Shown here one piece after another: positions 8,014 to 27,995 of a stretch of 27,995 bases of DNA (position 1 is the stretch's first letter; every line of letters begins with the position of its first letter). The DNA lies in the NCBI GenBank assembly GCA_964441785.1, contig CAYYLA010000001.1:9565-37559 (forward strand), in the 5' to 3' direction. The position numbers were made by a program, and so were the translations under genes. The notes under the pieces are model-generated. The model did not search any database and was not told where the DNA came from. It was given only the letters and a program-made list of their open reading frames with translations. The DNA is from an uncultured Candidatus Cloacimonadota bacterium (lineage in GTDB: Bacteria > Cloacimonadota > Cloacimonadia > Cloacimonadales > TCS61).

Positions 8014-8027
8014 TCAAATTTTGGGCA
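8011..8027 (+). promoter_or_regulatory. Candidate enhancer (UAS) motif TGATCAAATTTTGGGCA
   Basis: 17-mer pseudo-palindrome starting 136 nt before the -24 GG at 8147; 14/17 identical to 13758-13774 and 13/17 to 10260-10276. Confidence 0.45.
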
Positions 8028-8145
8028 TGATATTCATTTATTAGACAAAATAAATAATTTTGTCACATCTGAGATTTTTTGAAACATGATGTAACTCTTT
8101 TAATGGCAAATAGATGTCTTTGAATTAATATTTTCTTTTATCACT

Positions 8146-8161: not shown

Positions 8162-8184
8162 TATAAATTATCATGAGGGATGTT

Positions 8185-8535
8185 ATGAAAACAAAAATCA
8201 TGATAGTAGATGATAATATTTTAAGCTTAGACAGTATCTATCTGTCGCTAAAAAGCCATGGCTTTGTCGTAAGCACATTTTCATCACCATTAAAAGCATT
8301 AAGTGCTTTTGCCAATGAGCGTTTTGATGCGGTATTGAGTGATTACTACATGCCGGAGATGCGCGGAGATGAGCTGTTAAACAAGATCAAGAGTATCGAT
8401 CCAGATGTGAAGACATTCCTTTTTTCCGGTTATATTTCATCCAGCATTATGGAAAATCTGGATCTCGAGATAGCTGGAACTTTCCTGAAAAAACCCCTTG
8501 ATATAACACAAATTATCATGGCTCTGGAAGATTGA
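8185..8535 (+). CDS. Single-domain response regulator (CheY-like receiver)
   Basis: IVDDN, VLSDYYMP, FSG and KKP motifs. ATG 8185 preferred over 8173 because GAGGGA (8175-80) lies between the two. Confidence 0.88.
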   Translation: MKTKIMIVDDNILSLDSIYLSLKSHGFVVSTFSSPLKALSAFANERFDAVLSDYYMPEMRGDELLNKIKSIDPDVKTFLFSGYISSSIMENLDLEIAGTFLKKPLDITQIIMALED

Positions 8536-8586
8536 TTCTCTTGCTTCCATAAATTCAATTGTCAAAACCTGATCCAAAAGTAAAAT

Positions 8587-16250: not shown

Positions 16251-16292
16251 ATAAGGTTCCTTATGAAAATGGTTTGGAAGCAGGGAGTAGAA

Positions 16293-16607
16293 ATGAATCT
16301 GATAGAAGATCTTGCTCAGATAGGATTAACGCTTAATGAATCCAAGGTTTATCTGTCTCTACTGAAAGGTGAACAGTTTTCGGCTGCTCAGTTGGCTAAA
16401 GAGTCAAAGATAAATAGAACAAAAATCTACTGTGTTCTTGGGAATTTGATGAAGCGGGGATTTTGTGAAGAAGTACCAGGAAGGGTAAGGATGTTTCGTG
16501 CGATGGATCCAAAAATCGCAATGAATAAATTAATAAGTTTACATGAAAATAATCTGAAAACAGCGGTTCGGGTAACCGAGATTTTAGCGAGAAGTTTTCA
16601 GACTTAA
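16293..16607 (+). CDS. TrmB-family winged-helix regulator, DNA-binding domain only
   Basis: LAQIGLTLNESKVYLSLL...AAQLAKESKINRTKIYCVLGNLMKRGF...FRAMDP; GGGAG RBS favours ATG 16293 over 16263. Confidence 0.8.
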   Translation: MNLIEDLAQIGLTLNESKVYLSLLKGEQFSAAQLAKESKINRTKIYCVLGNLMKRGFCEEVPGRVRMFRAMDPKIAMNKLISLHENNLKTAVRVTEILARSFQT

Positions 16608-16621
16608 GGAAAGGAGCAGAA

Positions 16622-17074
16622 GTGAAACGAACAATTAATCTATTAGTGTTGGTAGTAATGCTGGTAATTTCTCAACTTTTACTGGCAGATGGGATGGAAC
16701 CGGAAGCGTTAAAGAAAGATGAGGTAAAAATTGTAACGTTATCTGTTGAAAATGGCATATTGCAGGCTCATTACATGATCCCTGAAGATATGCATCAGAC
16801 ATTACAGGAAGACTACTTTTATCTTGATGTTGAACATGGTGATGGTGTAGTTTTTGAAGAAACTGTCTATCCCGAAGGTCATGTAGATGAAGATGGATAC
16901 ATAAATTTTGAAAAGGAAGTTACCTTAACTAAGTCCTTTAAATTATTAGATAATGCTAAACCGGAAGATGTTAAAATTACTGTGTATGCTGGCTATCAAT
17001 ACTGTTACGAAACATATTGTGAACCTCCTGTTGAGGTTGAATTTGAGATAAATCTTACTGAGGGCAAAAAATAG
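16622..17074 (+). CDS. Exported protein resembling the DsbD N-terminal Ig-like domain
   Basis: Signal peptide; beta-rich body with IPEDMHQ; terminal YQYCYETYCEPP cysteine pair positioned like the nDsbD QGC...CYPP motif. Confidence 0.65.
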   Translation: MKRTINLLVLVVMLVISQLLLADGMEPEALKKDEVKIVTLSVENGILQAHYMIPEDMHQTLQEDYFYLDVEHGDGVVFEETVYPEGHVDEDGYINFEKEVTLTKSFKLLDNAKPEDVKITVYAGYQYCYETYCEPPVEVEFEINLTEGKK

Positions 17075-17083
17075 GGGATAACT

Positions 17084-17236
17084 ATGAAGCTTAAGAAATT
17101 TCTCACATTTTGGATGCCATTGATCATCATCGTACTGGCAATCAATTTTATTCTTATGGGTATTGGAGTGGAAGAGTTTCCCGAAATGGCAAGCAAGGCA
17201 ATTAATCTTTGCCTGGGCTGAATCGGGTTAGGGTAG
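17084..17236 (+). CDS. Small membrane selenoprotein (50 aa with Sec46 at TGA 17219-17221), CD1871A-like CxxC family with CxxU; absent from the ORF track
   Basis: MKLKKFLTFWMPLIIIVLAINFILMGIGVEEFPEMASKAINLCLG-TGA-IGLG-TAG. GGGGA RBS before 17084. The C-terminus matches the family pattern KAxxxCxxCIGxG and the gene sits directly before a 4Fe-4S binding protein; hairpin downstream of the TGA. Confidence 0.85.
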
Positions 17237-17247
17237 GTGGAACCTAT
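17233..17247 (+). other. Putative SECIS element for TGA 17219, overlapping the TAG stop and the next start region
   Basis: GTAGGT-[GGA]-ACCTAT, 6 bp including one G-T pair; first loop G at +18. Confidence 0.6.
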
Positions 17248-18115
17248 GAAGAAAAAAATCAACCTTTTCAGTAGAAACAAGATCAGACTGTTTGTCCTGT
17301 TTCTGGCACTTTTTGTTATCAATGGTCATTTCTATGTAAAATATTACGAAGGAGTGATGGAGATTCTTAAGCATATTCCATTGCCTGTGTTAAATTGTTA
17401 CTCTTCTCCGTCAACTGTCTGGGCTTGTCCTATTGGTTTGTTGCAACACTTCATTGTTATTGGATCTTTTTCCTTTGCAACTCTGGGCATTTTACTGTTG
17501 ATTGGAGCCTTTATCGGGCGATGGGCTTGTGGGTGGCTCTGTCCTTTTGGTTTTCTGCAGGAAGCATTATATCATATTCCAACCAGAAAATTTAAATTAC
17601 CTATGTGGACGAAATATATCAAATACGTTATCTTTGTGGCAGGTGTGATAATCTTACCGATGTTTTTAAAGAATGAGATAGGTATGACGGAGACCTGGTT
17701 CTGCAATTTCTGTCCGGCCGGTTGTCTCGAAGCGGGTATCCCTGTTCCTATTATGGATCCCAGTCTGAGATATCTCATCGGGACAATGTATTGGATAAAA
17801 ATTGCAATATTGATTTTGGTTGTGATTATCCCAAGTATTTTTATAAAACGACCTTTCTGCTCGATTATCTGCCCGCTTGGAACTTTGATGGGGGTCTGTA
17901 ATTCATTCAGTTTCTTGAAGCTTCGTTTTGACAGGAGTAAGTGTGTCGATTGCGGATTATGTTCTACCGATTGCCCCATGGGTTTAAATCCAACTACAGA
18001 TTATGGCTCTCCTGAATGCATCCTTTGCATGAACTGTACTAAAGAGTTTTGCAGTGCCATAAAACCAGAATTTAATAATAAATTTGTTGAAAGAAAAAAA
18101 GAGATAAAGGAGTAA
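17246..18115 (+). CDS. NapH/MauN/RdxA-like polytopic membrane 4Fe-4S binding protein
   Basis: Hydrophobic helices; WACPIG, RWACGWLCPFG, FCNFCPAG, PFCSIICPLG; ferredoxin motifs CVDCGLCSTDCP and CILCMNCTKEFC. Start is ATG 17246 or GTG 17237. Confidence 0.88.
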   Translation: MKKKINLFSRNKIRLFVLFLALFVINGHFYVKYYEGVMEILKHIPLPVLNCYSSPSTVWACPIGLLQHFIVIGSFSFATLGILLLIGAFIGRWACGWLCPFGFLQEALYHIPTRKFKLPMWTKYIKYVIFVAGVIILPMFLKNEIGMTETWFCNFCPAGCLEAGIPVPIMDPSLRYLIGTMYWIKIAILILVVIIPSIFIKRPFCSIICPLGTLMGVCNSFSFLKLRFDRSKCVDCGLCSTDCPMGLNPTTDYGSPECILCMNCTKEFCSAIKPEFNNKFVERKKEIKE

Positions 18116-18658
18116 ATGATGAGAAAACTACTGATGTTAATGTCGATAATGATTCTGATGACAGGGTTGCTCTCTGCAAGTGAATCGGAAATGAAGGTGA
18201 TACCTGATTTTTCTCTTAATGATATTGATGGTAATGAGGTAAACCTCTATACTATTTTAGATGAAGGTAAATATGTTGTGATAGATTTTTGGGCTACCTG
18301 GTGTGTGCCCTGCTGTAAAGCCCTACCTCATTTAAATACATTCCACGAAAAATATGATGATGTTGTTGTTATCGCTATATCCGAAGATAGCAAACGCATG
18401 GCGAAAAAAGCATCAGCTTATATCAAGGGATTGGATTACTCTTTTATTACCTTACTGGATCCAAAGGGTGAAGTTAAGAAACTTCTTGATGTTGATGTAC
18501 TTCCTGAAACATTTTATGTAAGACCTGATAAATCAGTAGCCTGGAGACATTTTGGATACAAGAAGGGCGAAGAGATAAGTATGGAAGAAGAATTGGTTAA
18601 AATGCTTGAAGAAAATAAAATTCCTGCTCAAAGTTCCGAAGCAGATGTTCAAAAATAG
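18116..18658 (+). CDS. Exported TlpA-family thiol-disulfide oxidoreductase
   Basis: Signal peptide; PDFSLNDIDG, VIDFWATWCVPCCKALP, VLPETFYV (cis-Pro loop). Confidence 0.92.
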   Translation: MMRKLLMLMSIMILMTGLLSASESEMKVIPDFSLNDIDGNEVNLYTILDEGKYVVIDFWATWCVPCCKALPHLNTFHEKYDDVVVIAISEDSKRMAKKASAYIKGLDYSFITLLDPKGEVKKLLDVDVLPETFYVRPDKSVAWRHFGYKKGEEISMEEELVKMLEENKIPAQSSEADVQK

Positions 18659-18669
18659 TGGAGTTGGAA

Positions 18670-19761
18670 ATGAAGAAAATTTTTATGTTAATACCTGTCA
18701 TTATTATGCTGATGGTTGGATGCGAATTACTGGATCATGATCCTTTTAACGATCAGAAAATTGAGGAAATGTTTGATGAATTCTCGGCTGCATTCTCTAC
18801 GATTTCTGCTGATGATGTGTCTGATGTAATGGTATTCTATGATCAGGATTACTTTCATGATTTACAGGATGTTTACGGTAGAGAAGAATTTTATCTCTCT
18901 CTGTTTCAAAGCTATGGTGAAGATATTACCTTTGAATGCTATCTGACAGATTATAAAGAGAACCTGGAAATTGAGTGGGTTCTTGGTGTAAACTATGAGG
19001 TAGACGGTATTCAAATGGTAGAAAACTTTGAATTTGTTGAGTATCTAAAAGATAACAACGGTGAGTACTATTTCTATGGAAATCAGGTAAATCCTCCAGC
19101 TTTGGATCCAGATAAACCAATCGTTTTTGTTGAATATGGTACAGCAGAAAATTGTGGTAATTGTCCTCCAGCATCATCCGAATTGCATCACATGCAATTG
19201 GAACATGGTGCTCAGTTTATTTATGTAACCTATTGCGCTGGTGAACCAATGAGTACCTATATCGATTTTGCCACTTATTATAACGAAACAGCTCAACCTG
19301 TTACAATTTTCGGCGGTCAATATAAGATTGTTGGTGCTTCAGAAGACGATTTAGCAGAGTTTGATCAACGCTATAATCAAGTATTATCAGGGACACCTGA
19401 AGCATTCCTGTCCAATATTACCTGGAGTGATGATGGAGAGATGATTGATGGTACTGTTGATGTCGATTTGCAGGGTGTATCTACGGCTAATCTTGTTTTG
19501 ATGGCTGCACTTGTTGATGAACGACCCGAACTATATTACGATAATGGTGGCAACAGAATCTACAATGTGCTTTTTGCTGTTGGTGAGGAACAGGTAGGTG
19601 GCTCAGGAACTGCAGAATTCAGAATTGAATATGATCTGCCAAGCTATTCTGATACAATGCCTGCTACAACAAAATTAATTGTCTGGCTGCAAACTAAGGA
19701 TGCCAATTATAATCCTGATACCTGTAAAATCCATACAGCAGCTGAAATAGATCTATTTTAA
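18670..19761 (+). CDS. Lipoprotein with an N-terminal NTF2/SnoaL-like segment and an Omp28-like thioredoxin domain (CGNC)
   Basis: Lipobox LMVGC; VFVEYGTAENCGNCPP; QPVTIFGG; C-terminal Ig-like region ending LIVWLQ. GGAG RBS favours ATG 18670. Confidence 0.72.
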   Translation: MKKIFMLIPVIIMLMVGCELLDHDPFNDQKIEEMFDEFSAAFSTISADDVSDVMVFYDQDYFHDLQDVYGREEFYLSLFQSYGEDITFECYLTDYKENLEIEWVLGVNYEVDGIQMVENFEFVEYLKDNNGEYYFYGNQVNPPALDPDKPIVFVEYGTAENCGNCPPASSELHHMQLEHGAQFIYVTYCAGEPMSTYIDFATYYNETAQPVTIFGGQYKIVGASEDDLAEFDQRYNQVLSGTPEAFLSNITWSDDGEMIDGTVDVDLQGVSTANLVLMAALVDERPELYYDNGGNRIYNVLFAVGEEQVGGSGTAEFRIEYDLPSYSDTMPATTKLIVWLQTKDANYNPDTCKIHTAAEIDLF

Positions 19762-19770
19762 GGAGTAACG

Positions 19771-20364
19771 ATGAAGAAGTTAGTAATAATTTTAACCCTT
19801 ACAATAATTTCAATAATGTTGAGTGCGGTTGAATTGGGTACTGCTCCCGATTTTCAATTGGAAAATGAACGTGGTGATCAGGTTAAGCTATCTGATTTCA
19901 ATGATAAACTTGTACTATTAGATTTCTGGGCTACCTGGTGCGTTCCCTGCTGTAAAGAATTGCCCCATTTATCCAAACTGCAGGAAAAATATGGTGATGA
20001 TATTCAAGTGCTTGCAATAACAATAGATAAGGCTAGACAGGTTTCCAAGGCTAAAGCTTACGTTAAATCAAATCGTTTCAAATTCATGACGCTTTTCGAT
20101 CCAAAGCAAGAGGTTGCTGCTCTCTACAACATGGTAAATCCTCCTCGTACTCTTCTTATCGATCCCTCTGGTAAAATAATCTTCCAACATGATGGTTATA
20201 AACGCGGAGATGAAGTGCATATTGAAGAAGAAATTGTAAAATGGATTGAAGCAAAATCTATCAAAACTCCTGTTGAAAATGCTGTTGGTGATGGTGATAT
20301 AAAACAACCGGAAACTCCAAAATTTGAGATGAAAAAAATGGAACAAACAAAGGGTGAGAAATAA
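19771..20364 (+). CDS. Second exported TlpA-family thiol-disulfide oxidoreductase
   Basis: Signal peptide; APDFQLENERG, LLDFWATWCVPCCKELP, NPPRTLLID. Confidence 0.92.
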   Translation: MKKLVIILTLTIISIMLSAVELGTAPDFQLENERGDQVKLSDFNDKLVLLDFWATWCVPCCKELPHLSKLQEKYGDDIQVLAITIDKARQVSKAKAYVKSNRFKFMTLFDPKQEVAALYNMVNPPRTLLIDPSGKIIFQHDGYKRGDEVHIEEEIVKWIEAKSIKTPVENAVGDGDIKQPETPKFEMKKMEQTKGEK

Positions 20365-21830
20365 TGAAAAAGATAATATTAATTACACTCTTGTTAATTG
20401 TTGGATCTATTTTGCTGGCTGATGACTTTTCTATCAGTGGTATCAATGAAGCACACTATGTCTATAAAAGCGCTGAAGATTCACTTAATCAATATTTCCA
20501 GGATAAATTTAAATTCTTACTGCAATATAATGATTTTCGCTTTGGTATGACCTATGTAGGCGAATTCCCAAAATATCGTAAATTTGAACCATTGGCAGAA
20601 TTGGATCCATCCAACCTGCATAATGAGTGGGAAGAACGTTATGTGGAATTTAACACAGGCGAATATATGGTTAAAGCAGGTAATTTCGATGCCCTTATTG
20701 GATCAGGTATGATATTGCATGCCTACTATAACGAAGATCTTGATGAGGATTATCGACTCGATGGTTTCTATGGACGGGTTGTTAAAGATGCCTGGTCGCT
20801 ACAGGCTTTTCATGGTATTTTGCCAACCGAAGATGCCTCTTTTGAAGCAGATGATGTTATCAATGGTGCCGATCTGGAGATAACGCCTATCGCTCCATTA
20901 ACTCTTGGATTTGCCGCTCTCTCTAATCAGGAATATCAAGGGGCTGATAATTATAATTACAGCATTAGAGAAGTGATATCCGGGCGAATGGGATTCTATC
21001 ATGACTATTTTGAAGTAAATGCCGAATATGCTGAAAGTAAACAGTATCATAATGAATTCGGTGGTACAAAATACGGCAACGCTTTCTACTCTGATTTGAA
21101 TGTTTATGCTGGTATGTTTACAGTTACAGGTGCTTATAAAAACTATGATAAATTTGTGCATCGTCTTAATGAACTTCCAACCGTAAATCACAGTGAAGAA
21201 CCATTGGTGGATTATGGATATGATGTAGGTTCAGGTGAAGAAGGTTATATGGCTGTGGTTAGATTCGTGCCAAATTTCGAGAATGAACTGGTTGTTAATT
21301 TTGCCAACGGTTGGTCTAAAGATGATACCATTGAACAGATTGATATTCATGCCGAATATCGTAGAGATTTTGAATCCTTTACGCTTATCACAGAATATAG
21401 CCATCTGGAAAACACCTGGGAGATAGATAATGTAAACTATTGGGCACAGGAAATGACTCCAAAAATCAGTGTGGATTTCTTATTAGGCGATATGCCAACT
21501 ATGCTTAAAGCTGAATATAAGATAGAAAAACATGAGGAATATACCCATATCAGTGAAGAGACCATAAAGTACGAACCAACACTTCAGGCTGATATCGGTA
21601 TCAAGCAATACGCAATATCTCTGTTGGCAAGTTATCACTATCTTGATGGTGAAGATATCAATGCGAATACTCCTAAAATCGGGGTTGAATTTGTAGCTCC
21701 TTTATGGAATCATACTGAACTTAAACTCTTTGCCGGTAGCGAAAAGGGTGGTCTTGTCTGCCGTAACGGTGTTTGTAATTATCAGGCTCCTTTCGAGGGT
21801 GCACGAATAGATCTTACTACAAGATTTTAA
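20364..21830 (+). CDS. Outer-membrane beta-barrel protein, DUF6029-like, with a C-terminal cysteine pair
   Basis: Signal peptide; alternating amphipathic strands; GNFDALIGSGMIL; terminal KGGLVCRNGVCNYQAPFEGARIDLTTRF ending in an aromatic residue. Confidence 0.7.
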   Translation: MKKIILITLLLIVGSILLADDFSISGINEAHYVYKSAEDSLNQYFQDKFKFLLQYNDFRFGMTYVGEFPKYRKFEPLAELDPSNLHNEWEERYVEFNTGEYMVKAGNFDALIGSGMILHAYYNEDLDEDYRLDGFYGRVVKDAWSLQAFHGILPTEDASFEADDVINGADLEITPIAPLTLGFAALSNQEYQGADNYNYSIREVISGRMGFYHDYFEVNAEYAESKQYHNEFGGTKYGNAFYSDLNVYAGMFTVTGAYKNYDKFVHRLNELPTVNHSEEPLVDYGYDVGSGEEGYMAVVRFVPNFENELVVNFANGWSKDDTIEQIDIHAEYRRDFESFTLITEYSHLENTWEIDNVNYWAQEMTPKISVDFLLGDMPTMLKAEYKIEKHEEYTHISEETIKYEPTLQADIGIKQYAISLLASYHYLDGEDINANTPKIGVEFVAPLWNHTELKLFAGSEKGGLVCRNGVCNYQAPFEGARIDLTTRF

Positions 21831-21850: not shown

Positions 21851-22900
21851 ATGAAGAAAATTTTCTTAACTTTAATTGTGCTTGCATTTGCTCTTTTATC
21901 TGCAACACAGCTAAATGTTATCAGTGAACTGTTTACTGTTATTCCCGATTGTTGATGTATTGATGACTACGCTCGTGTAGCGTTGGACGACTATGCTTTA
22001 CAAGCTCCCCATGCTATACCGTTGTGGTGGAGTATGGAGTCCGAAATGCCATCACCAATGGCTGAAGAACGTTTTACTCTCTATCAGGGTGAGAATACTC
22101 CGCACGCATTTTTTGGTCGTATCGAAGAGGTTGACGCATGGAATTGTATGGATTATGTTAACTTCTGTAGTGCCTATGATGCTGTCGCCAGTAATACAGC
22201 TTATGCTGAGATTGATCTCGATTTTTATTCTACTTCTGCTGGCCAATATTCGGTTGCTGCAGAGGTAAATCTTGTAGAAGATGTTATAACGACAAACAAC
22301 AAAATATTCTTTGTAATAGTTGGAAAACTAACTGGAGAATCTCGTGACCCGGGATATTGGAATAATCGCGTTATCGCTGCCTCTGAATCTCAGGATTTCT
22401 CACTTTTAACAAGCGGTGAAACAGCCTCTTTTTCAGCAGATTTTGCCCTCGACCTTTCTGACTATGCTGACCATGGAGCTTATGAAGAGGAATACCTGCA
22501 CGCTGTTGCTATTATCCAATCCTATGATAATCTGATGATTCTTCAAAGTGAGATTGTACAGTTCGGTCTGTCTGATTCGCCTGACTCTGACATTGTTCCA
22601 GCTAATGTTTCTTTGAAACAGAACTGGCCTAATCCCTTTAATCCAGCACAAACAGGTCGTGGCCCTGCAACAACGATAGAATTTACAACCAGAAAAGCTG
22701 CATCAACAGAACTCTCTATCTATAACCTGAAAGGACAAAAAGTGATAACATTGGTTAATCAAAATCTTGAAGCTGGGGATTATTCATATTCATGGTCTGG
22801 TAGTGATGATAATGGACATGAGGTTAGCTCGGGTGTTTATTACTATATCTTAAAATCAGCCGAATCCGTCGAAACCAGAAAAATGCTTTTAATGAAATAA
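21851..22900 (+). CDS. Secreted Omp28-like thioredoxin-fold selenoprotein (349 aa with Sec35 at TGA 21953-21955, Cys-Sec-Cys motif) with FlgD-Ig sorting domain
   Basis: GAGG RBS then MKKIFLTLIVLAFALLSATQLNVISELFTVIPDC-TGA-CIDDYARVAL, in frame with ORF 21983-22900. TPHAFFG cis-Pro loop; C-terminal NWPNPFNP...RKMLLMK; hairpin follows the TGA. Confidence 0.85.
21969..21983 (+). other. Putative SECIS element for TGA 21953
   Basis: ACGCT-[CGTGT]-AGCGT, perfect 5 bp; loop G at +20. Confidence 0.72.
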
Positions 22901-22911
22901 AATGAAAGGAA

Positions 22912-22945
22912 TCAGCCATCGCTGGCTTCTTCCAGTGATGGCTGA
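22912..22945. other. Strong hairpin between the Omp28-like gene and arsR (terminator-like or operator)
   Basis: TCAGCCATCGCTGG-CTTCTT-CCAGTGATGGCTGA, 14 bp with one G-T pair; no U-tract. Confidence 0.6.
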
Positions 22946-22953
22946 CATTGATT

Positions 22954-23253
22954 ATGAATATTGAAGATAAAAAAAGATTCTCTAAGATGGCTGAAATCAG
23001 TAAAGCTCTGGCTCATTCCTCCAGATTGTTTATTCTACATAAACTTGATGCTCAGGAACTTTGTGTTAAAGAGCTTGCTCAATTGATTGGATCAGATATC
23101 TCTACTGTATCAAAACACCTTGCTCAATTGAAAAATGTTGGTTTAGTTACAGATGAAAAACGCGGTAATTGCGTCTATTACCATCTGCAATGTAGGTGTG
23201 TATTGAATATTTTCAGTTGTGTAGAGAATGTAATATCAGCCACTCGGGAATAA
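22954..23253 (+). CDS. ArsR/SmtB-family transcriptional regulator
   Basis: KALAHSSRLFIL...ELCVKELAQLIGSDISTVSKHLAQLKNVGLV...RGNCVYYHL; Cys-rich tail CRCVLNIFSC. Start is ATG 22954 or TTG 22948. Confidence 0.93.
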   Translation: MNIEDKKRFSKMAEISKALAHSSRLFILHKLDAQELCVKELAQLIGSDISTVSKHLAQLKNVGLVTDEKRGNCVYYHLQCRCVLNIFSCVENVISATRE

Positions 23254-23309: not shown

Positions 23310-24017
23310 ATGTTAACGTTATTTGAAGAACTTACTTTGGCCCTTTATGGAAACCCTGGTGTTGCTTTGGCCGCTTCACTTCTTTGGGGCATTCTCAGTA
23401 TTCTTATCAGCCCTTGCCACCTTGCTGCAATCCCCCTGGTCGTCGCTTTTATCAATGATCAGAAGGAGATAACAACCGGTAAGGCATTCAGGATTTCCTT
23501 TATGTTTTCTCTGGGAATCTTGATAACCCTGGTTGCTGTTGGTCTGATAACGTCTCTCACAGGCCTGATTCTTGGAAGTACCGATATGATAATGCGCATC
23601 GTTATCAGCATCGTGTTACTATTTGTCGGTTTATACTTTCTTGGAGTGGTCCCATTACCCGATTTTGGTGGTGTATCCAATAAACGAATGTCCAGGAATC
23701 CCTATGTTAGTGGGTTAATCCTGGGTCTATTTTTTGGGATTGCTCTTGGACCTTGTGCCTTCGCATTTATGGCACCAATTCTGGGGATTGTGATGCAGAA
23801 TATTGAAACGGGATTTCTATTTTCTATAGCTCTTCTGGTCATGTTTCTGATTGGACATTGTGGTGTTTTGATATTGGCTGGAACCTTTACAAGATTGGTG
23901 AAGCAATTTCTCGCTTGGGATGCTGCCGCAAAGGGCACACTCATTATCAGAAAAATCTGTGGAATTCTAATTATTATCGGAGCAGTTTACACCTTTGTTA
24001 AAGCTGTTCATTTTTAG
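23310..24017 (+). CDS. ccdA: CcdA/DsbD transmembrane electron transporter
   Basis: Six hydrophobic segments; ISPCHLAAIP and ALGPCAFAF, the two conserved PC motifs. Confidence 0.9.
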   Translation: MLTLFEELTLALYGNPGVALAASLLWGILSILISPCHLAAIPLVVAFINDQKEITTGKAFRISFMFSLGILITLVAVGLITSLTGLILGSTDMIMRIVISIVLLFVGLYFLGVVPLPDFGGVSNKRMSRNPYVSGLILGLFFGIALGPCAFAFMAPILGIVMQNIETGFLFSIALLVMFLIGHCGVLILAGTFTRLVKQFLAWDAAAKGTLIIRKICGILIIIGAVYTFVKAVHF

Positions 24018-24142: not shown

Positions 24143-24382
24143 ATGGATATAAAAATTCTAGGAACCGGATGTCCAAAATGCAATAAGCTTGAGAAAAATG
24201 TCAGGAAAGCTGTGGAAGAAATTGGATTAGATGCAGAGATTACAAAGATTTCTGATCTGGAAGAGATAATGAGTTTTGGTGTAATGATGACGCCTGGTTT
24301 GGTAGTAGATGGAGAACTGAAATCTTCGGGAAAATTATTAAAACCGAAAGATATAACAAAATTATTGAAGGATAAATTATAA
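24143..24382 (+). CDS. Small cytoplasmic thioredoxin-like protein (MTH895-type redox-active disulfide protein)
   Basis: MDIKILGTGCPKC...GVMMTPGLVVDG; AAGGAG RBS. Confidence 0.92.
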   Translation: MDIKILGTGCPKCNKLEKNVRKAVEEIGLDAEITKISDLEEIMSFGVMMTPGLVVDGELKSSGKLLKPKDITKLLKDKL

Positions 24383-24777
24383 TGAAAAAGATCATAATTA
24401 CAGTGTTTCTCGCTGTCTTTGCTTTTCTCTTGTTTGGATCGGAAACCATGGTTGGAAAAGCTGATACCACTTCTGTTTCAACAACAATCACGTTTATAGA
24501 ACTTGGATCAATAACCTGTGTACCCTGTAAGCAGATGGAAAAAGTGTTAGAAGCAACGGAAGAGAAATATGGCGATCAGATTGAAGTAATATTCTATGAT
24601 ATCATGAAAGATCGATCAAAATCTAAAGAGTACAATGTTAGGATAATGCCGACCCAGGTTTTTCTTAATAGTGATGGAAAAGAGATTCATCGTCATATTG
24701 GATACTATCCACAGAAGCAATTAGATGAATTTCTGCAGAAACAGGGATTAATTCCTCTGGAGAATAATGATGAATAA
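24382..24777 (+). CDS. Exported thioredoxin-family protein
   Basis: Signal or anchor peptide; FIELGSITCVPCKQM; VRIMPTQVF; HIGY. Confidence 0.9.
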   Translation: MKKIIITVFLAVFAFLLFGSETMVGKADTTSVSTTITFIELGSITCVPCKQMEKVLEATEEKYGDQIEVIFYDIMKDRSKSKEYNVRIMPTQVFLNSDGKEIHRHIGYYPQKQLDEFLQKQGLIPLENNDE

Positions 24778-25678
24778 ACTGATTGCGGTTGTGTTAGTTT
24801 TTCTTGCGATCAGTTGCATGTTAGATGCGCACGAAATAGCTCTGCACTATGCTCTTGAAGGAACCGAAACCTATGGTGGTGATGAGATAAGGGGATGGGA
24901 AGTAGATTTTTTAACCCTGGATTGGGGTGATAATGATTTCTCTGATTATGGTGTAACTGTTAAATTTACATTCAGTAAATCAGATGTCTCAAAAATTGTC
25001 TTAACCAAAGGTTGGAAACGATTTGATTTAGGAAAAAACTGGAATCTTACTGTGGGTAAACAACAATATGGTTTCGGATTATTCAGTGGCTCCGGTTGTG
25101 GATGAGGTGGTTCGGGATCCGTGGGATCCGGCTGCGTGAGTTATTATTCATTTAAACAGTTGATTGCAGATGCTGATTTTAACCTTAAAGTGGATAAACA
25201 GATTGGTGATCTCAATGGTCAGATTTATATTGGACATACCCTGAAAGAGGAAGCTGCTGTCGGTTCCAGAATTTCCTGGGATTTTAACAATCTTGAATTA
25301 GGTGTTGCAGCACTTTGGCTCGATTATCAGGATGAAGAACAACAGCTGACAAACTATGAATTTGATCTGCAATATACCTTGCCAAAATACATAAATGTGA
25401 AAACTCAAATTGGTAATATCGATGATGGTAATAATGATACAGATGACTTAAACTTTTTTTGTCTGATTCAAAAGGATGAACCATTTTACATCCCATTTGT
25501 AAAAGAGATCATTCCCTATGCTGGTATCTCCACAAGAGATGAAATGAAAGAAAATAGTGTAATAATGGGACTGAACTTTTCACCTGTAACTGATGCGTAT
25601 ATCAAAATAGAACATGTGCTGGATTCCAGCGAAGATGTCGATCCCAGGAGCGATATTCAGGTCGGTTACACGTTCTAA
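24770..25678 (+). CDS. Outer-membrane beta-barrel selenoprotein (about 302 aa, Sec at TGA 25103-25105) with a Gly/Ser-rich C-G-U...C loop
   Basis: ORFs 24767-25105 and 25121-25678 are in frame with 5 sense codons between them: GKQQYGFGLFSGSGCG-TGA-GGSGSVGSGCVSYYSFK. Signal peptide only on part 1; terminal beta-signal DIQVGYTF only on part 2; hairpin follows the TGA. Confidence 0.85.
25115..25129 (+). other. Putative SECIS element for TGA 25103
   Basis: GGATC-[CGTGG]-GATCC (6 bp if C-G closes a GTG loop); loop G at +16. Confidence 0.72.
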
Positions 25679-25705: not shown

Positions 25706-25745
25706 GTAACAGTAGGGACGAGATGTGTGTCGTCTCTACTGTTAC
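25706..25745. repeat. REP-like GTAG...CTAC inverted repeat at the end of the operon
   Basis: GTAACAGTAGGGACGA-GATGTGTG-TCGTCTCTACTGTTAC, a 16-bp stem with one G-T pair; the core GTAGGGACG...CGTCTCTAC resembles GTAG-type REP elements. Confidence 0.65.
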
Positions 25746-25820: not shown

Positions 25821-27995
25821 ATGCGAGTTAGGATTTTTTTGTGTTTGTTATTGATCTTATCAGTGTTAACCCTTTGGGGAGAAGCAATAGTCTGGGAAGC
25901 TGATTTTGCCAGTCAGGAAACGGAATGGCAACTGGATGAAAACTGGATGAATGCCGGTGATTATCTTGTACTGAACTGGTCTCCTGCAATTATCGATTAT
26001 GATTTATCTGCTATATCGCCAGAGATCGAACTACCTGAAGATACAAATGAGTTAACAGTCTCTCAATGGATTTCCGAATATATGACCAATGAAGGTGAGT
26101 ATGCCGAAATCAATATATTGTCCGATGGGAATTCCACAAATATCTGGTCATTGGAGTTAGATGGAACTGACTGGGGTGTTATGGACGGTGAAGAATTAGC
26201 ATTGGATATTAGTGCTTTTTCCAACACAACAATTCAGATTGAATTCAGAAGCTTTGGATCATCAACCTTTAACTTCAATTATTGGTATCTATATGGGATG
26301 CAGATAGAAGCCTTTCTCGATCATGATGTCAGTGCTGTCTCAATCTCAGGAACCTCATCAATGTTTGTTAACGAAGAGGGTAACTGGACCGTTACTGGTA
26401 TGAATTCCGGTTTATTTGAAGAGAATGATGTTCAGGTTTCGTTGATGAATGGTGATACAGAGATTTCTACAATTGCTGTGGAAGGTCCGCTGGCGGTTGG
26501 TGAAGAGTTCAATCTCGATTTCACCTGGACTCCAACTGAGGATCAGGTTGCGTTGCTGCGAGGAGTAATAACTATGCCGGGGGATGAATATCTATCCAAT
26601 AATGAGACAGAGCCATTTCTGGTAAATATCTATCCAGAGGATGCGATTGTCGCTTTGATCTGGGATAATGATAATGGTTCTTATGTGGGAGCTACAGGTA
26701 CAGAGGAATATCTGGAACAGGTTTTAGATGAAGCTAATATTATCTATGAAACATCTCTAAGTTTGCCACAGGATCTTTCATCCTACGATGCGATTTTTAT
26801 TGCCCTTGGCGTTTATTGCGTGGGCTGAGGTGTAACCCCTCCCGGCTCTGTAGGAGCTCAAGAACAAATCCGTTTAATTGATTTCGTAAATAGTGGTAAA
26901 GGTCTCTATATAGAAGGTTCTGATTTTGCTGCTTCCCATCAGGGAACTGATTTTTTCAACCTTTTTGGATGTGATTTGACTAATAATGAGACAGGAGATG
27001 TCGGCACATTACAAGGTCAGATTGGTACAATGGTTGATGGTATGAACTTTGACTTCTCAAACGGGATGGATGAAAACTATTCGGTTGATGGATTATCGGC
27101 AAATGATGGGACGATGCTGTTTACTTCAGGTCTCTACGGCAGAGTTGTAATGAATTCTGCTCAGGGTGGACGAACCATCTGCTCTACTCCTGTGTTGGGA
27201 GGATACATAGAAAATGGTGATAATTCCCATCTGAATCTTTTCCAGCAATATCTGACCTATCTAGTTGATCCTGAAGCATCTGCCATGATTCCATCCAACT
27301 TTGCTGCCGAGTTGATCAGCGATGATGTCTACATGGATTGGATGGCACCGGATAATTTGACTGGTCTGCTGGGGTATAATGTCTACAAAAATGGGATGTT
27401 ACTAAACAGTGAAGTAGTTGAGGAAGCCGAATATGTCGAAGAAAATATTGATTATGGAGTACATTCTTATTGGGTTACTGCAATCTATGAAGGTGATGTA
27501 GAAAGTAACTCTTCGAATCATGCAACTATCGTTTATTCCGATCCCACCAGTGGCTATGCTCTCGACTTTGATGGGATTACCTCCGAGGTTGTTGTTACCG
27601 ATGCTCCAGATTTAAATCCAACCGAACAGATTTCGGTAGAAGCATGGGTTAAATTAGCTGGAATCACAAGCCTTCCTTCCATTGTCAGTAAAGAGGATTG
27701 GAGTACAGGTGAAACGGGGTATGTATTAAGAATTGATGATTTTGTTAATACAAATACGCCCCAATTTCAAATAGGGACAGCGCAGGGTTGGATAGCAGCC
27801 AGTGCTCCGCTGGGGTCTATACCTTTTGATACCTGGACGCATGTAGCAGGAACCTATGATGGATCCAATATTAAAATCTATATTGATGGTGAACTGGAAG
27901 GGACCCAACCTTGCTCCGAAACAATTAACATCTCTCCTATAGATTTAAGAATCGGTGGGCATATGGAAGGATCTAACAGGTACTGGAATGGTGTG
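25821..27995 (+). CDS. Secreted multidomain selenoprotein C, 3'-partial (Sec336 at TGA 26826-26828): signal peptide, adhesin-like domain, CARDB-like Ig, CxxU alpha/beta domain, FN3-like, LamG/concanavalin-like domain
   Basis: IALGVYCVG-TGA-GVTPPGSVGAQEQIRLIDFVNSGKGLYIEG; by my translation the frame stays open from 26829 to the window end (…MDWMAP…GYNVY…YWVTAIY…; YALDFDG…ISVEAWVK…WTHVAGTYDGSNIKIYIDG). The ORF track does not list this part. Confidence 0.9.
26844..26858 (+). other. Putative SECIS element for TGA 26826
   Basis: GGCTC-[TGTAG]-GAGCT; stem at +16, loop G at +22. Confidence 0.8.

What the first reader, a model, noticed from the sequence alone, without database searches (positions are those of the whole stretch)
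24770..25678. Outer-membrane beta-barrel with selenocysteine in a Gly/Ser-rich loop (C-G-U-x9-C)
Seen: signal peptide, amphipathic strands and terminal GYTF, interrupted mid-protein by SGSGCG-U-GGSGSVGSGC. The SECIS hairpin (GGATCC GTG GGATCC) itself encodes the GSVGS linker. Inference: a flexible loop carrying Cys, Sec and Cys in a porin-like protein could be a redox gate, a metal or metalloid (Hg, As, Cu) capture site, or a trans-outer-membrane electron or disulfide relay. It ends an ArsR-ccdA-thioredoxin run. I know of no characterised Sec-containing porin.
Basis: partly seen in the sequence, partly recalled or inferred. Interest (0 to 1): 0.85.

Follow-up and report, generated by a model that had tools for sequence, protein, structure and literature searches.

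The report
Selenocysteine porin in arsenic-type operon
One gene, split by an apparent stop codon, encodes an outer-membrane pore protein of a Cloacimonadota bacterium whose main pore loop carries a cysteine-selenocysteine pair; it always follows exported-thioredoxin genes and often arsenic-resistance genes, which suggests a chemically reactive pore of a kind not described before.

Summary
ORFs 24767-25105 and 25121-25678 are one gene with an in-frame TGA at 25103-25105. The same TGA sits at the homologous position in about 10 diverged relatives (25-68% identity). One relative has Cys there (SGAC-C-G). Every TGA form has a G-loop hairpin 15-21 nt downstream with compensatory changes; the Cys form has none. 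TGA also ends ordinary genes in the window, so this is selenocysteine and not a variant code.

AlphaFold with a 34-sequence alignment gives a 16-stranded barrel (pLDDT 83). Foldseek matches it to general porins (OmpF/OmpC, OmpM1, DcaP; TM 0.55-0.66). Sec113 lies at the disordered tip of the 39-residue loop between strands 5 and 6 (L3, the constriction loop of classical porins).

The Sec/Cys-loop subfamily always follows an exported thioredoxin (or CcdA directly, in one locus) under ArsR. In relatives the operon also carries an ArsP-type permease, Acr3 or an ArsC-like gene. Loop-less paralogues lack this context.

No Pfam, NCBIfam or reviewed selenoprotein family covers it. The function is inferred: a thioredoxin-recycled selenol/thiol site for thiophilic metalloids in a pore.

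The parts
24767..25678 (+). Complete gene for the Sec-containing porin-like outer-membrane protein (303 aa plus stop). ATG at 24767; a second ATG at 24770 is the alternative start.
   Evidence: One frame with a single internal TGA. Orthologues are collinear across the TGA. AF2 gives a 16-strand barrel, pLDDT 83. Foldseek matches porins.
24767..24829 (+). Signal peptide (residues 1-21), with predicted cleavage ...LDA|HE. The 'A-HE' junction is conserved across the family.
   Evidence: Read from the sequence. Modelled as helix 2-19. Family alignment.
24923..24949 (+). Subfamily-specific motif W-G-[DN]-N-D-F-S-D-Y, a 3-residue insertion in the turn between strands 2 and 3 (periplasmic side by porin convention). 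A candidate docking site for the exported thioredoxin; this is an inference.
   Evidence: Alignment A3. Strand layout. This motif was the DNA pattern that retrieved further members.
25061..25177 (+). Loop L3 (residues 99-137) between strands 5 and 6. It is the longest loop, Gly/Ser-rich, and carries the roughly 10-residue insertion with Cys111-Gly-Sec113.
   Evidence: DSSP of the AF2 model; residues 108-118 have pLDDT below 50. The insertion is seen relative to loop-less paralogues.
25097..25099 (+). Cys111 codon (TGT), the conserved partner of Sec (C-G-U here, C-U in most relatives).
25103..25105 (+). UGA decoded as selenocysteine (Sec113).
   Evidence: Conserved in-frame TGA in all 12 other TGA-bearing loci. 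It aligns with Cys in P0027.
25107..25135 (+). SECIS-like stem-loop: a 6-bp lower stem rich in G.U, a 2-nt bulge, the upper stem GGAUCC/GGAUCC (25115-25120 and 25124-25129) and the loop GUG (25121-25123). It encodes G-G-S-G-S-V-G-S-G-C.
   Evidence: Folding. Equivalent hairpins in all orthologues. Covariation. The hairpin is absent in the Cys form. The motif is unique to post-TGA sites.
25133..25135 (+). Cys123 codon (TGC), the distal Cys. It is present only in the window's clade and in L003 and is not conserved across the family.
25646..25675 (+). Last beta-strand, ending ...IQVGYTF. The terminal aromatic residue is typical of outer-membrane barrels.
   Evidence: Strand 294-302. G300 and F303 are nearly invariant.
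25706..25745 (+). 16-bp hairpin (GTAACAGTAGGGACGA ... TCGTCTCTACTGTTAC) after the stop codon; the probable end of the operon.
   Evidence: Read directly. The consensus terminator scan did not call it because the T-run is weak.
24382..24777 (+). Exported thioredoxin (N-terminal hydrophobic segment, C-V-P-C). Its stop overlaps the porin start by 8-11 nt.
   Evidence: Pfam Thioredoxin / Thioredoxin_2. Orthologue alignment. It lies immediately upstream of the porin gene in every locus that shows the junction except L011.
24143..24382 (+). Cytoplasmic thioredoxin-like protein (C-P-K-C) of the MTH895/ArsE family.
   Evidence: TIGR00412, 108.5 bits against a cut-off of 62; PF13192.
23310..24017 (+). 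CcdA/DsbD-type membrane thiol-disulfide electron transporter (motifs SPCHL and GPCA).
   Evidence: PF02683, 32.7 bits against a cut-off of 27.1. Orthologues.
22948..23253 (+). ArsR/SmtB-family regulator with four Cys that are invariant among orthologues; first gene of the operon.
   Evidence: NF033788, 80.6 bits against a cut-off of 55. Alignment. A 14-bp terminator-like hairpin at 22912-22945 lies just upstream.

Best explanation
SHOWN OR WELL SUPPORTED. Positions 24767-25678 are one gene of a Cloacimonadota bacterium. It encodes a secreted, 16-stranded, porin-like outer-membrane protein. UGA 25103-25105 is read as selenocysteine under the direction of the stem-loop at 25107-25135. Sec113 and its conserved partner Cys111 lie at the flexible, Gly/Ser-rich tip of loop L3. 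This is the long loop between strands 5 and 6, which forms the pore constriction in classical porins. The gene is the last, translationally coupled member of the operon arsR - ccdA - cytoplasmic Trx-like - exported Trx - porin.

INFERRED MECHANISM. Reducing equivalents pass from the cytoplasmic Trx-like protein through CcdA to the exported thioredoxin. The thioredoxin keeps the porin's Cys/Sec pair in the selenolate/thiolate state by reducing its selenenylsulfide. The reduced pair then acts as a thiophilic site inside, or at the mouth of, the channel. It would bind, filter or hand over soft metalloids as they cross the outer membrane, most probably trivalent arsenicals. On this reading it is the outer-membrane counterpart of the inner-membrane exporters (Acr3, ArsP-type permease) that sit in the same operon in relatives.

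My confidence is about 0.9 that this is a Sec-containing porin-like protein tied to the CcdA/thioredoxin module, and about 0.35-0.4 for the metalloid mechanism. The single figure given is a compromise between the two.
For: Sec decoding:
- A single in-frame TGA at the homologous column in the window and in all 12 other TGA-bearing loci recovered, about 10 distinct sequences (L001, L003, L004, L008/9, L010, L011, L016, L019/23, L024, L025), at 25-68% protein identity.
- The Cys form P0027 aligns C with U (SGAC-C-GPGGG against SGSC-U-GSGSG).
- A hairpin follows every TGA, with its loop 15-21 nt downstream and G in the first two loop positions. The background frequency of such a hairpin is about 0.095 per site.
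- Covariation in the stem: 85% of cells paired and 3 of 8 pairs compensatory.
- The Cys form lacks the hairpin.
- TGA terminates five ordinary genes in the window.
- Four more Sec-like sites lie in the window. I checked two in L001 (at least 3 of the 4) and both are conserved there.
- The lineage is Cloacimonadota, for which a distinct tRNA-Sec type is documented (PMC5330540).

Fold:
- AF2 with 34 sequences gives pLDDT 83.1, pTM 0.79 and 16 strands.
- Foldseek finds 144 PDB hits at E <= 0.001. The top hits are 16-stranded porins with TM 0.55-0.66.
- Weak sub-threshold sequence hits point only to porin families.

Link to the reducing pathway:
- The exported Trx lies immediately upstream in every locus that shows the junction, except L011, where CcdA abuts the porin gene. 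Start and stop codons overlap.
- Four loop-less paralogues have no such neighbours.

Metalloid link:
- L016: ArsR-ArsP-like-CcdA-Acr3-Trx3-Trx-porin, with Acr3 at 390 bits against a cut-off of 283.
- L010 and L023: ArsR-(CMD)-ArsP-like-CcdA-Trx3-Trx-porin.
- L008: porin followed by an ArsC-like gene.
- CcdA + thioredoxin + redox-active disulfide protein 2 is a recognised recurrent ars-operon trio (PMC2963123).
- CU dipeptides are rare and have been argued to mark heavy-metal contact sites (bioRxiv 10.1101/2022.07.06.499078).
Against: - There is no experimental evidence of selenium incorporation, localisation, redox activity or arsenic response.
- The window and L001 carry no arsenic-specific gene next to the operon.
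- ArsR/SmtB regulators and PF03773 permeases also serve Cu, Zn, Hg and sulfur-species systems. The permease's best NCBIfam hits are SO_0444 Cu/Zn efflux and SaoE, both below cut-off.
- Acr3 and the ArsC-like gene each occur in only one distinct context. The ArsC-like hit is below its cut-off (95 against 174 bits).
- The Sec motif itself has pLDDT below 50 and no coordinates were available. Whether the loop lies in the lumen, at the surface, or can reach the periplasm is unknown.
- By porin convention L3 starts on the cell-surface side, so access by a periplasmic thioredoxin is a real geometric problem.
- As(OH)3 is small and uncharged and should cross any porin, so a dedicated channel is not obviously needed.
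- Individual hairpins are not more stable than shuffled sequence.
- The sel genes and tRNA-Sec were not seen; they are not in the window.
Confidence: 0.55

Rival explanations
1. It is a Sec-porin as described, but the Cys/Sec pair is an antioxidant or peroxidase-type centre. Sec is oxidised by peroxide or O2-derived species entering the pore of this strict anaerobe, resolves with the neighbouring Cys, and is recycled by the exported thioredoxin. The arsenic genes in some relatives would then be incidental operon neighbours.
For: - The CcdA -> exported Trx pathway classically feeds periplasmic reductases and peroxidases (established knowledge).
- Sec next to a resolving Cys is the usual design of Trx-dependent selenoperoxidases.
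- The window and L001 lack arsenic-specific genes, and a large envelope thiol-redox cluster lies just upstream (TlpA/ResA-like, DsbD_N-like and NapH-like genes, 16263-21830).
- The regulator has four invariant Cys and could sense oxidants.
Against: - The ArsP-type permease recurs in 4 loci (3 distinct contexts) that extend far enough upstream, and Acr3 and an ArsC-like gene appear in others.
- The Thioredoxin_3/CcdA/Trx trio is a known ars-operon module.
- No peroxiredoxin or GPx-like fold or motif is present.
- A vicinal C-U is atypical for peroxidases and has been linked to metal binding.
Confidence: 0.2
2. It is a Sec-porin as described, but it traffics chalcogen species (selenide/selenite, polysulfide or persulfide, thiosulfate) across the outer membrane. 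Transient Se-S or Se-Se bonds with the loop would carry the substrate, for example to supply selenium to a very selenoprotein-rich organism.
For: - The organism has at least five Sec-like sites in 28 kb, so selenium demand is high.
- The regulator also resembles the sulfite/persulfide sensor BigR and TsoR, at sub-threshold scores.
- Selenol/thiol pairs readily form mixed chalcogenides (established chemistry).
Against: - No YedE/YedF, rhodanese, SelD or sulfur-transferase genes lie in any of the operons.
- The associated transporters are of the arsenic/metal efflux type.
- Making selenium uptake depend on a selenoprotein would be circular.
Confidence: 0.1
3. The TGA is a true stop: a pseudogene, or two separate small proteins (112 aa and about 185 aa).
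For: - Gene callers split it everywhere.
- The hairpin alone is not significantly stable.
Against: - The stop is always TGA, always at the same column, in about 10 diverged sequences, with purifying selection on both sides.
- The Cys form and the loop-less paralogues are uninterrupted.
- The second half has no signal peptide. In orthologues its called ATG/GTG starts lie at varying internal positions.
- Only the joined sequence gives a closed 16-strand barrel.
Confidence: 0.03
4. The organism uses a variant genetic code in which TGA is a sense codon (Gly as in code 25, or Trp as in code 4), so the residue is not Sec.
For: The TGA lies in a Gly-rich stretch, where Gly would fit.
Against: - TGA ends five ordinary genes in the window, including one with a typical ATGA stop/start overlap.
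- Only five in-frame TGAs lie within real genes. Each is next to Cys (C-G-U, C-x-x-U or C-U-C) and is followed by a hairpin.
- The homologue has Cys, not Gly or Trp, at that column.
- The lineage is Cloacimonadota, not Gracilibacteria or Mollicutes.
Confidence: 0.01

Closest known systems
Classical 16-stranded general porins (OmpF/OmpC/OmpK36, Rhodobacter porin, V. cholerae OmpT, A. baumannii DcaP, Veillonella OmpM1 barrel)
   Same: - Predicted fold: 16 antiparallel strands, a signal peptide and a C-terminal aromatic residue.
- The longest loop lies between strands 5 and 6 (L3).
- Foldseek probability 1.0, TM 0.55-0.66.
   Different: - No significant sequence similarity. The best hits are Pfam Porin_O_P at E 0.003-0.007, below cut-off, and PDB OprO at E 0.21.
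- L3 carries a Gly/Ser-rich insertion with Cys-(Gly)-Sec.
- The gene is embedded in a regulated thiol-redox operon and is not a stand-alone housekeeping gene.
- Trimer formation and inward folding of L3 were not tested.
ars-operon redox trio CcdA + thioredoxin + redox-active disulfide protein 2 (Castillo & Saier 2010, PMC2963123). From my memory and from NCBIfam names, these correspond to ArsG/ArsF/ArsE of Chen, Zhang & Rosen 2019.
   Same: - The same three gene families under an ArsR regulator.
- In relatives the same operon also carries Acr3, an ArsP-type permease or an ArsC-like gene.
   Different: - No outer-membrane component has been described for that module. Here a Sec-porin is appended and translationally coupled.
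- The thioredoxin here is exported.
- The CcdA homologue scores far below the ArsG cut-off (41 against 200 bits in L016; no hit for the window copy).
- The ArsEFG paper could not be read here.
C-terminal Gly-Cys-Sec-Gly redox arm of mammalian thioredoxin reductase (from general knowledge)
   Same: - A vicinal Cys-Sec flanked by Gly on a flexible segment ([GS]-[SA]-C-U-G in most subfamily members).
- Such a pair forms a selenenylsulfide, is recycled by a dithiol partner, and is a high-affinity target of arsenicals, gold and mercury.
   Different: - It is an internal loop of a beta-barrel, not a C-terminal tail of a flavoenzyme.
- The window's clade has C-G-U, not C-U.
- Electron flow would run from thioredoxin to the pair, which is the reverse of thioredoxin reductase.
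- Nothing was tested biochemically.
Catalogued outer-membrane beta-barrel selenoproteins: GSU2204/MtrB-PioB family (NF041027) and TonB-dependent receptor of FCYXU-motif type (NF049945), listed in the 2026 review PMC13188914
   Same: Sec in an outer-membrane barrel protein of an anaerobe; known only from sequence analysis.
   Different: - They are different families and folds (large barrels of the MtrB/PioB and TonB-dependent-receptor families).
- The query gives no hit to any NCBIfam model at E <= 1.
- They have a different motif (CxxU) and a different context.
CU-motif selenoproteins of the SAO system, HgcA and MerT-type transporters (Haft et al., bioRxiv 10.1101/2022.07.06.499078)
   Same: - The rare Cys-Sec dipeptide, with CC in the non-Sec homologues.
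- Association with an ArsP-family (PF03773) permease.
- A proposed role in contacting a soft metal or metalloid atom during transport.
   Different: - The protein folds are unrelated.
- The SAO system is mostly in Firmicutes, which lack an outer membrane.
- No SAO genes are present here.

Membership tests
Bacterial selenoprotein (UGA = Sec) | In-frame UGA conserved among orthologues, with coding conservation on both sides | tested here: met
   A single TGA at the same column in all 12 other TGA-bearing loci, about 10 distinct sequences at 25-68% identity.
Bacterial selenoprotein (UGA = Sec) | Homologue with Cys aligned to the Sec position | tested here: met
   P0027 (Candidatus Cloacimonadales MAG) has SGAC-C-GPGGG with codon TGT.
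Bacterial selenoprotein (UGA = Sec) | SECIS stem-loop immediately downstream of the UGA | tested here: met
   - Hairpin of 5-10 bp at every site, with the loop starting 15-21 nt after the codon and G in the first two loop positions.
- Covariation: 85% of cells paired, 3 of 8 pairs compensatory.
- Absent in the Cys form.
- Caveats: there is no Rfam match and single hairpins are not more stable than shuffles.
Bacterial selenoprotein (UGA = Sec) | Sec machinery (selA, selB, selC, selD) in the same genome | not testable with these tools
   It is not in the window and no tRNA was found. Indirect support: four other Sec-like sites in the window, a Cloacimonadota origin, and a documented Cloacimonetes-type tRNA-Sec (PMC5330540).
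Bacterial selenoprotein (UGA = Sec) | Selenium detected in the protein | not testable with these tools
   Needs 75Se labelling or mass spectrometry.
16-stranded general porin fold | Signal peptide, closed barrel of 16 antiparallel strands, C-terminal aromatic residue | tested here: met
   AF2 with pLDDT 83 and 16 strands; terminal F303. This is a prediction only.
16-stranded general porin fold | Structural similarity to solved porins | tested here: met
   Foldseek against the PDB: OmpT, DcaP, OmpM1, OmpF/C/K36 and Rhodobacter porin, E 1e-8 to 1e-6, TM 0.55-0.66.
16-stranded general porin fold | Loop L3 folds into the lumen and forms the constriction | tested here: inconclusive
   The loop between strands 5 and 6 is by far the longest (39 aa).
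16-stranded general porin fold | Membership of a curated porin sequence family (Pfam or NCBIfam) | tested here: not met
   Porin_O_P at 16-17 bits against a cut-off of 20.9. Other members give sub-threshold hits to OMP_b-brl, Porin_4 and BBP2. NCBIfam gives nothing.
16-stranded general porin fold | Trimeric assembly and channel conductance | not tested
   Needs a multimer prediction or electrophysiology.
ars-type operon with the CcdA/Trx/Thioredoxin_3 module | ArsR/SmtB regulator, CcdA, Thioredoxin_3 (MTH895/ArsE family) and thioredoxin in one transcription unit | tested here: met
   All four are above curated cut-offs. There is a terminator-like hairpin before arsR and the genes overlap.
ars-type operon with the CcdA/Trx/Thioredoxin_3 module | Arsenic-specific genes (Acr3/ArsB, ArsC, ArsP) in the same unit | tested here: inconclusive
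   - Absent from the window and L001.
- Present in relatives: Acr3 in L016 (390 bits against a cut-off of 283), a PF03773 permease in L010, L016, L019 and L023 (below the NCBIfam cut-offs), and an ArsC-like gene in L008 (95 against 174 bits).
ars-type operon with the CcdA/Trx/Thioredoxin_3 module | Induction by arsenicals, or resistance to them | not testable with these tools
   Needs an experiment.
Known outer-membrane barrel selenoproteins (NF041027, NF049945) | Match to the family HMM | tested here: not met
   No NCBIfam family at E <= 1 for the joined protein.
Thioredoxin-reductase-like vicinal Cys-Sec redox centre | Adjacent Cys-Sec flanked by Gly | tested here: inconclusive
   Met in L003, L008 and L011 (C-U-G); L010 and L016 have C-U-A and L023 has C-U-N. 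The window, L001, L004, L024 and L025 have C-G-U-[GS]. Selenenylsulfide formation was not testable.

The most novel reading that the evidence does not exclude
This would be a chemically active porin. Its constriction loop is a flexible selenol/thiol arm that receives electrons from the cytoplasm through CcdA and an exported thioredoxin. The arm performs ligand-exchange or redox chemistry on arsenicals or other soft electrophiles while they cross the outer membrane. That would be the first redox-active outer-membrane channel, and the first case where the CcdA/DsbD reducing pathway ends in an outer-membrane protein.
Probability: 0.3. Interest if true: 0.9.

Novelty: new variant of a known kind. 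Interest (0 to 1): 0.77.

Why it matters
Porins are regarded as passive sieves, and bacterial selenoproteins as soluble or inner-membrane redox enzymes. A porin whose pore loop carries a Cys-Sec pair and whose gene is coupled to a CcdA/thioredoxin reducing pathway would join the two. If the reading is right, several things follow.

- Covalent chemistry could control passage across the outer membrane.
- The long-unexplained CcdA/Trx/Thioredoxin_3 trio of ars operons would gain a concrete terminal client.
- Arsenic or soft-metal handling in Cloacimonadota would gain an outer-membrane step. These bacteria are abundant in anaerobic digesters.
- Gene callers split this gene at the TGA in every data set I examined, so the family is currently invisible to annotation. 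This report provides a recognisable signature for it: the WG[DN]NDFSDY turn, the [GS][SA]C(G)U loop, and the G-loop hairpin.

Tried and rejected
- AF2 on the single sequence gave pLDDT 29 and was useless.
- Rfam at a permissive threshold found no SECIS family or any other credible RNA.
- MAFFT/RNAalifold on the seven post-UGA regions misaligned the hairpins and gave no consensus. It was replaced by a codon-registered ungapped alignment of the C-U group.
- Hairpin free energies against shuffles are individually not significant, so I did not use them as evidence.
- The word-indexed protein search found only one non-self relative, and only 6 with a profile. The exhaustive HMMER search was what revealed the family.
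- A genome scan with the two-sequence alignment found nothing. A hand-made degenerate DNA pattern for the WGxNDFSDY motif did find members. Three of its 5 genome hits and 6 of its 11 metagenome hits were unrelated chance matches.
- I tested whether the neighbouring T9SS protein with C-U-C belongs to the NCBIfam 'Omp28-related selenoprotein' family. It scored 20 bits against a cut-off of 200, so it is not a member.
- Lipoprotein reading of 'LAISC': rejected, because the Cys is not conserved and the family-wide cleavage junction is A|HE.
- The ArsEFG primary paper could not be retrieved. Statements about it rest on NCBIfam names and my memory.
Full report
**1. What is in the sequence**

On the + strand an ATG at 24767 (a second at 24770) opens a reading frame that runs to TAA at 25676-25678. 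It has exactly one internal stop, TGA at 25103-25105. ORF listing splits it into 24767-25105 (112 aa) and 25121-25678 (185 aa).

The peptide around the stop is FGLFSGSGCG-[TGA]-GGSGSVGSGCVSYYSF. The N-terminus is a typical signal peptide (MMNKLIAVVLVFLAISCMLDA|HE...) and the C-terminus is ...IQVGYTF.

Nine nucleotides after the TGA codon lies the inverted repeat GGATCC-GTG-GGATCC (25115-25129). With a G.U-rich lower stem and a 2-nt bulge it forms a 12-bp element spanning 25107-25135.

**2. Is the TGA a selenocysteine codon?**

TGA is a normal terminator in this window. Five ordinary regulatory genes end in TGA, one of them with the usual ATGA stop/start overlap. A variant genetic code is therefore excluded.

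Only five in-frame TGAs on the + strand join two long coding segments. All five lie next to Cys:
- 11298, YCVG-U-G
- 14232, WCVS-U-G
- 21953, PDC-U-C
- 25103, GCG-U-G
- 26826, YCVG-U-G

The word-indexed protein search found only one non-self relative of the porin gene. Its 37-kb contig (L001) is syntenic over about 20 kb. It carries the same gene with the same TGA and an identical loop, at 68% overall identity.

An exhaustive HMMER search with the C-terminal half found 32 cluster representatives. The roughly 165-178-aa hits that I traced turned out to be C-terminal halves of genes split in the same way. A degenerate DNA pattern for a subfamily motif retrieved more members.

In total 12 further loci, about 10 of them distinct sequences at 25-68% identity to the window protein, have exactly one internal stop. 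It is always TGA and always at the homologous column.

One member, P0027 from a Candidatus Cloacimonadales MAG, is uninterrupted and has Cys (TGT) at that column: SGAC-C-GPGGGF against SGSC-U-GSGSGF.

Every TGA form has a hairpin whose apical loop starts 15-21 nt after the codon and has G in the first two loop positions (GUG, GUA, GUUC, GGU, GGA, GGC, AGGU). Such a hairpin occurs at about 9.5% of random positions.

In the codon-registered alignment of six C-U-type sequences:
- 85% of stem cells pair, against 17-48% when partners are slid;
- 3 of 8 pairs show compensatory double changes;
- 12 of 500 shuffles reach the observed pairing.

The Cys form has no hairpin.

Weaknesses should be stated. 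Single hairpins are not more stable than shuffled sequence. Rfam has no matching SECIS model. The window contains no tRNA-Sec or sel genes.

The window's Rho protein and the named family members place it in Cloacimonadota, a phylum for which its own tRNA-Sec type has been described (PMC5330540). Two of the other Sec-like sites that I checked are conserved in L001.

Taken together, Sec decoding is very likely. A pseudogene or two independent small proteins are very unlikely.

**3. What is the protein?**

It matches no NCBIfam model at E <= 1. In Pfam it gives only a sub-threshold Porin_O_P hit. Other family members give sub-threshold hits to OMP_b-brl, Porin_4 and BBP2, and the family profile's best PDB sequence hit is the porin OprO at E = 0.21.

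AlphaFold on the single sequence failed (pLDDT 29). With a 34-sequence family alignment it gave pLDDT 83.1 and pTM 0.79. The model has a helix for the signal peptide and 16 beta-strands: 23-31, 44-53, 61-68, 76-89, 92-98, 138-146, 149-157, 163-173, 176-185, 194-205, 209-217, 228-236, 246-257, 262-272, 277-286 and 294-302.

Foldseek against the PDB returned 144 hits at E <= 0.001. The best are all 16-stranded general porins: V. cholerae OmpT, DcaP, OmpM1, OmpF/OmpC/OmpK36 and the Rhodobacter porins, with TM 0.55-0.66.

Sec113 lies in the 39-residue connection between strands 5 and 6. With both termini periplasmic, as in all known porins (established knowledge), this is loop L3, the constriction loop of classical porins. 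It is by far the longest loop.

Residues 108-118 have pLDDT below 50, which fits a flexible Gly/Ser-rich tip. It also means the position of the Cys/Sec pair (lumen, surface, or reaching the periplasm) is not resolved.

**4. Family structure**

The wider family consists of proteins of about 300 aa from Cloacimonadota MAGs and metagenomes. They share the A|HE mature N-terminus and a G-[YF]-x-F C-terminus but have a shorter L3 without Cys.

The Sec/Cys subfamily differs in two places:
- a roughly 10-residue insertion in L3 that carries the motif;
- a 3-residue insertion that creates the strongly conserved motif W-G-[DN]-N-D-F-S-D-Y in the turn between strands 2 and 3, on the periplasmic side.

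The conserved core of the loop is [GS]-[SA]-C-U in most members and G-C-G-U in the window's clade. It is absent in L008, L010, L011, L016, L023 and the Cys form.

**5. Genomic context**

In the window the gene ends a unit that starts after a 14-bp terminator-like hairpin at 22912-22945. The unit contains, in order:
- ArsR (NF033788, 80.6 bits)
- a CcdA/DsbD_TM protein
- a cytoplasmic Thioredoxin_3 protein of the MTH895/ArsE family (TIGR00412, 108.5 bits)
- a thioredoxin with an N-terminal hydrophobic segment and C-V-P-C
- the porin gene

Stop and start codons overlap between the last three genes. A 16-bp hairpin follows the porin gene at 25706-25745.

The exported thioredoxin lies directly upstream of the porin gene in every locus that shows the junction (window, L001, L003, L004, L005, L010, L016, L019, L023, L024, L025). 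The one exception is L011, where CcdA abuts the porin gene. Start/stop overlaps recur in the loci I checked.

The longer contigs add the following:
- L016: ArsR - PF03773 (ArsP-type) permease - CcdA - Acr3 (TIGR00832, 390 bits against a cut-off of 283) - Trx3 - Trx - porin
- L010: ArsR - CMD - permease - CcdA - Trx3 - Trx - porin
- L023 and L019: the same without CMD
- L008/L009: porin - LMWP-type ArsC-like gene (95 bits, below the 174 cut-off) - an unassigned ORF - CMD

Four loop-less family members sit in unrelated housekeeping contexts, two of them in tandem paralogue arrays. The link to the reducing module is therefore specific to the Cys/Sec-loop subfamily.

**6. How it most likely works**

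CcdA proteins carry reducing equivalents from cytoplasmic thioredoxins to exported thioredoxin-like proteins, which reduce specific envelope clients (established knowledge). The CcdA + thioredoxin + 'redox-active disulfide protein 2' trio is a recognised but unexplained recurrent component of ars operons (PMC2963123). From NCBIfam names and my memory of Chen, Zhang & Rosen 2019, which I could not read here, it corresponds to ArsG/F/E.

The simplest reading of the coupled gene order is that the porin's Cys/Sec pair is the client of the exported thioredoxin. Oxidised, the pair forms a selenenylsulfide; reduced, it is a selenolate/thiolate.

A vicinal Cys-Sec flanked by Gly on a flexible segment is the design of the thioredoxin-reductase C-terminal arm, a known high-affinity target of arsenicals (general knowledge). 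CU dipeptides in bacterial selenoproteins are rare and have been argued to mark contact with soft metal atoms in transport proteins (bioRxiv 10.1101/2022.07.06.499078). From memory, ArsP itself uses a vicinal Cys pair for trivalent organoarsenicals.

I therefore propose a thioredoxin-recycled thiophilic site in or at the pore. It would bind, filter or relay trivalent arsenicals, or similar soft species, at the outer membrane.

What is shown: one gene, a conserved TGA plus hairpin, a Cys homologue, a predicted porin fold, the position of the loop in the strand order, and the conserved operon.

What is inferred: Sec insertion, L3 in the lumen, electron flow to the loop, and the arsenical substrate.

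Real difficulties remain. A periplasmic thioredoxin has no obvious access to an L3 loop. The window's own operon has no arsenic-specific gene. ArsR and PF03773 families are broad in specificity.

**7. Rivals**

- An antioxidant or peroxidase-like role for the pair, about 0.2.
- Chalcogen (Se/S species) trafficking, about 0.1.
- A true stop codon, meaning a pseudogene or two proteins, about 0.03.
- A variant genetic code, about 0.01.

The evidence for and against each is given in the rival entries.

**8. Comparison with what is known, and novelty**

The fold is that of general porins, but the protein belongs to no curated porin sequence family.

The 2026 review of prokaryotic selenoproteomes lists two outer-membrane barrel selenoprotein families: the GSU2204/MtrB-PioB type (NF041027) and a TonB-dependent receptor with an FCYXU motif (NF049945). 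It lists no porin-like family (PMC13188914). The main texts of the two recent bacterial selenoprotein resources that I checked (deep-Sep and BSepDB) mention none either. A full-text search for selenocysteine together with porin found no described case.

I class it as a new variant of known kinds: a porin, and a Cys-to-Sec redox/metal-binding selenoprotein. It is unannotated because every gene caller splits it at the TGA.

**9. Verdict**

Interest is 0.77.

Noticed in passing
window 10566-13364 (TGA 11298-11300), about 13966-16250 (TGA 14232-14234), 25821 to beyond 27995 (TGA 26826-26828); L001 10825-13773: Three paralogous large proteins (the two complete copies end in T9SS sorting tails) each have an in-frame TGA in a C-V-[GS]-U-G (CxxU) motif after a beta-strand (...LGxYCVG-U-G[TV]TPPGSVGA). 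A hairpin of the same type follows each (GGCUCC-GUU-GGAGCU at 11316-11330; GGCUCU-GUA-GGAGCU at 26844-26858). The site is conserved in L001. They are probably cell-surface selenoproteins with a thioredoxin-like CxxU motif.
   Followed up: partly
window 21851-22900 (TGA 21953-21955); L001 about 7007-8035: A T9SS-tailed protein has an in-frame TGA in the motif IPDC-U-C near the N-terminus, conserved in L001. It resembles the NCBIfam 'Omp28-related selenoprotein' family only faintly (20 bits against a cut-off of 200), so it is not a member.
   Followed up: partly
window 16263-21830; syntenic in L001 1477-6990: Just upstream lies a conserved envelope thiol-redox cluster:
- a TrmB-type regulator
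- a DsbD_N-like protein
- a NapH-like 4Fe-4S membrane protein
- two TlpA/ResA-like redoxins (WCVPC)
- an Omp28-like protein with CGNCPP
- a DUF6029 outer-membrane barrel ending ...CRNGVCNY...TTRF
Together with the arsR-porin operon it forms a redox island of about 9 kb.
   Followed up: partly
window 4907-8013 and 8173-10257: Two similar signalling modules lie side by side: histidine kinases with TPR repeats (554 and 556 aa, clearly paralogous) together with a sigma-54-type response regulator and single-domain receivers. All end in TGA, which was useful as evidence that TGA is a normal stop here.
   Followed up: no
window 3647-4693 (- strand): The Rho homologue is short (348 aa). Like its Cloacimonadota relatives, it has only the ATPase domain (PF00006) among the precomputed Pfam hits, with no Rho RNA-binding domain listed. 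More distant hits do list that domain.
   Followed up: no
L006 6922-10032; L031 3887-6984: Loop-less members of the porin family occur as tandem arrays of two or three paralogues between uvrD and acetate kinase genes in Cloacimonadota MAGs. They may be the general porins of the phylum.
   Followed up: partly
L010 4596-4919; L008 1507-1824: A small CMD/AhpD-like protein accompanies the operon in some relatives and weakly matches the NCBIfam 'GSU3128 family (seleno)protein'. It may be another redox partner.
   Followed up: no
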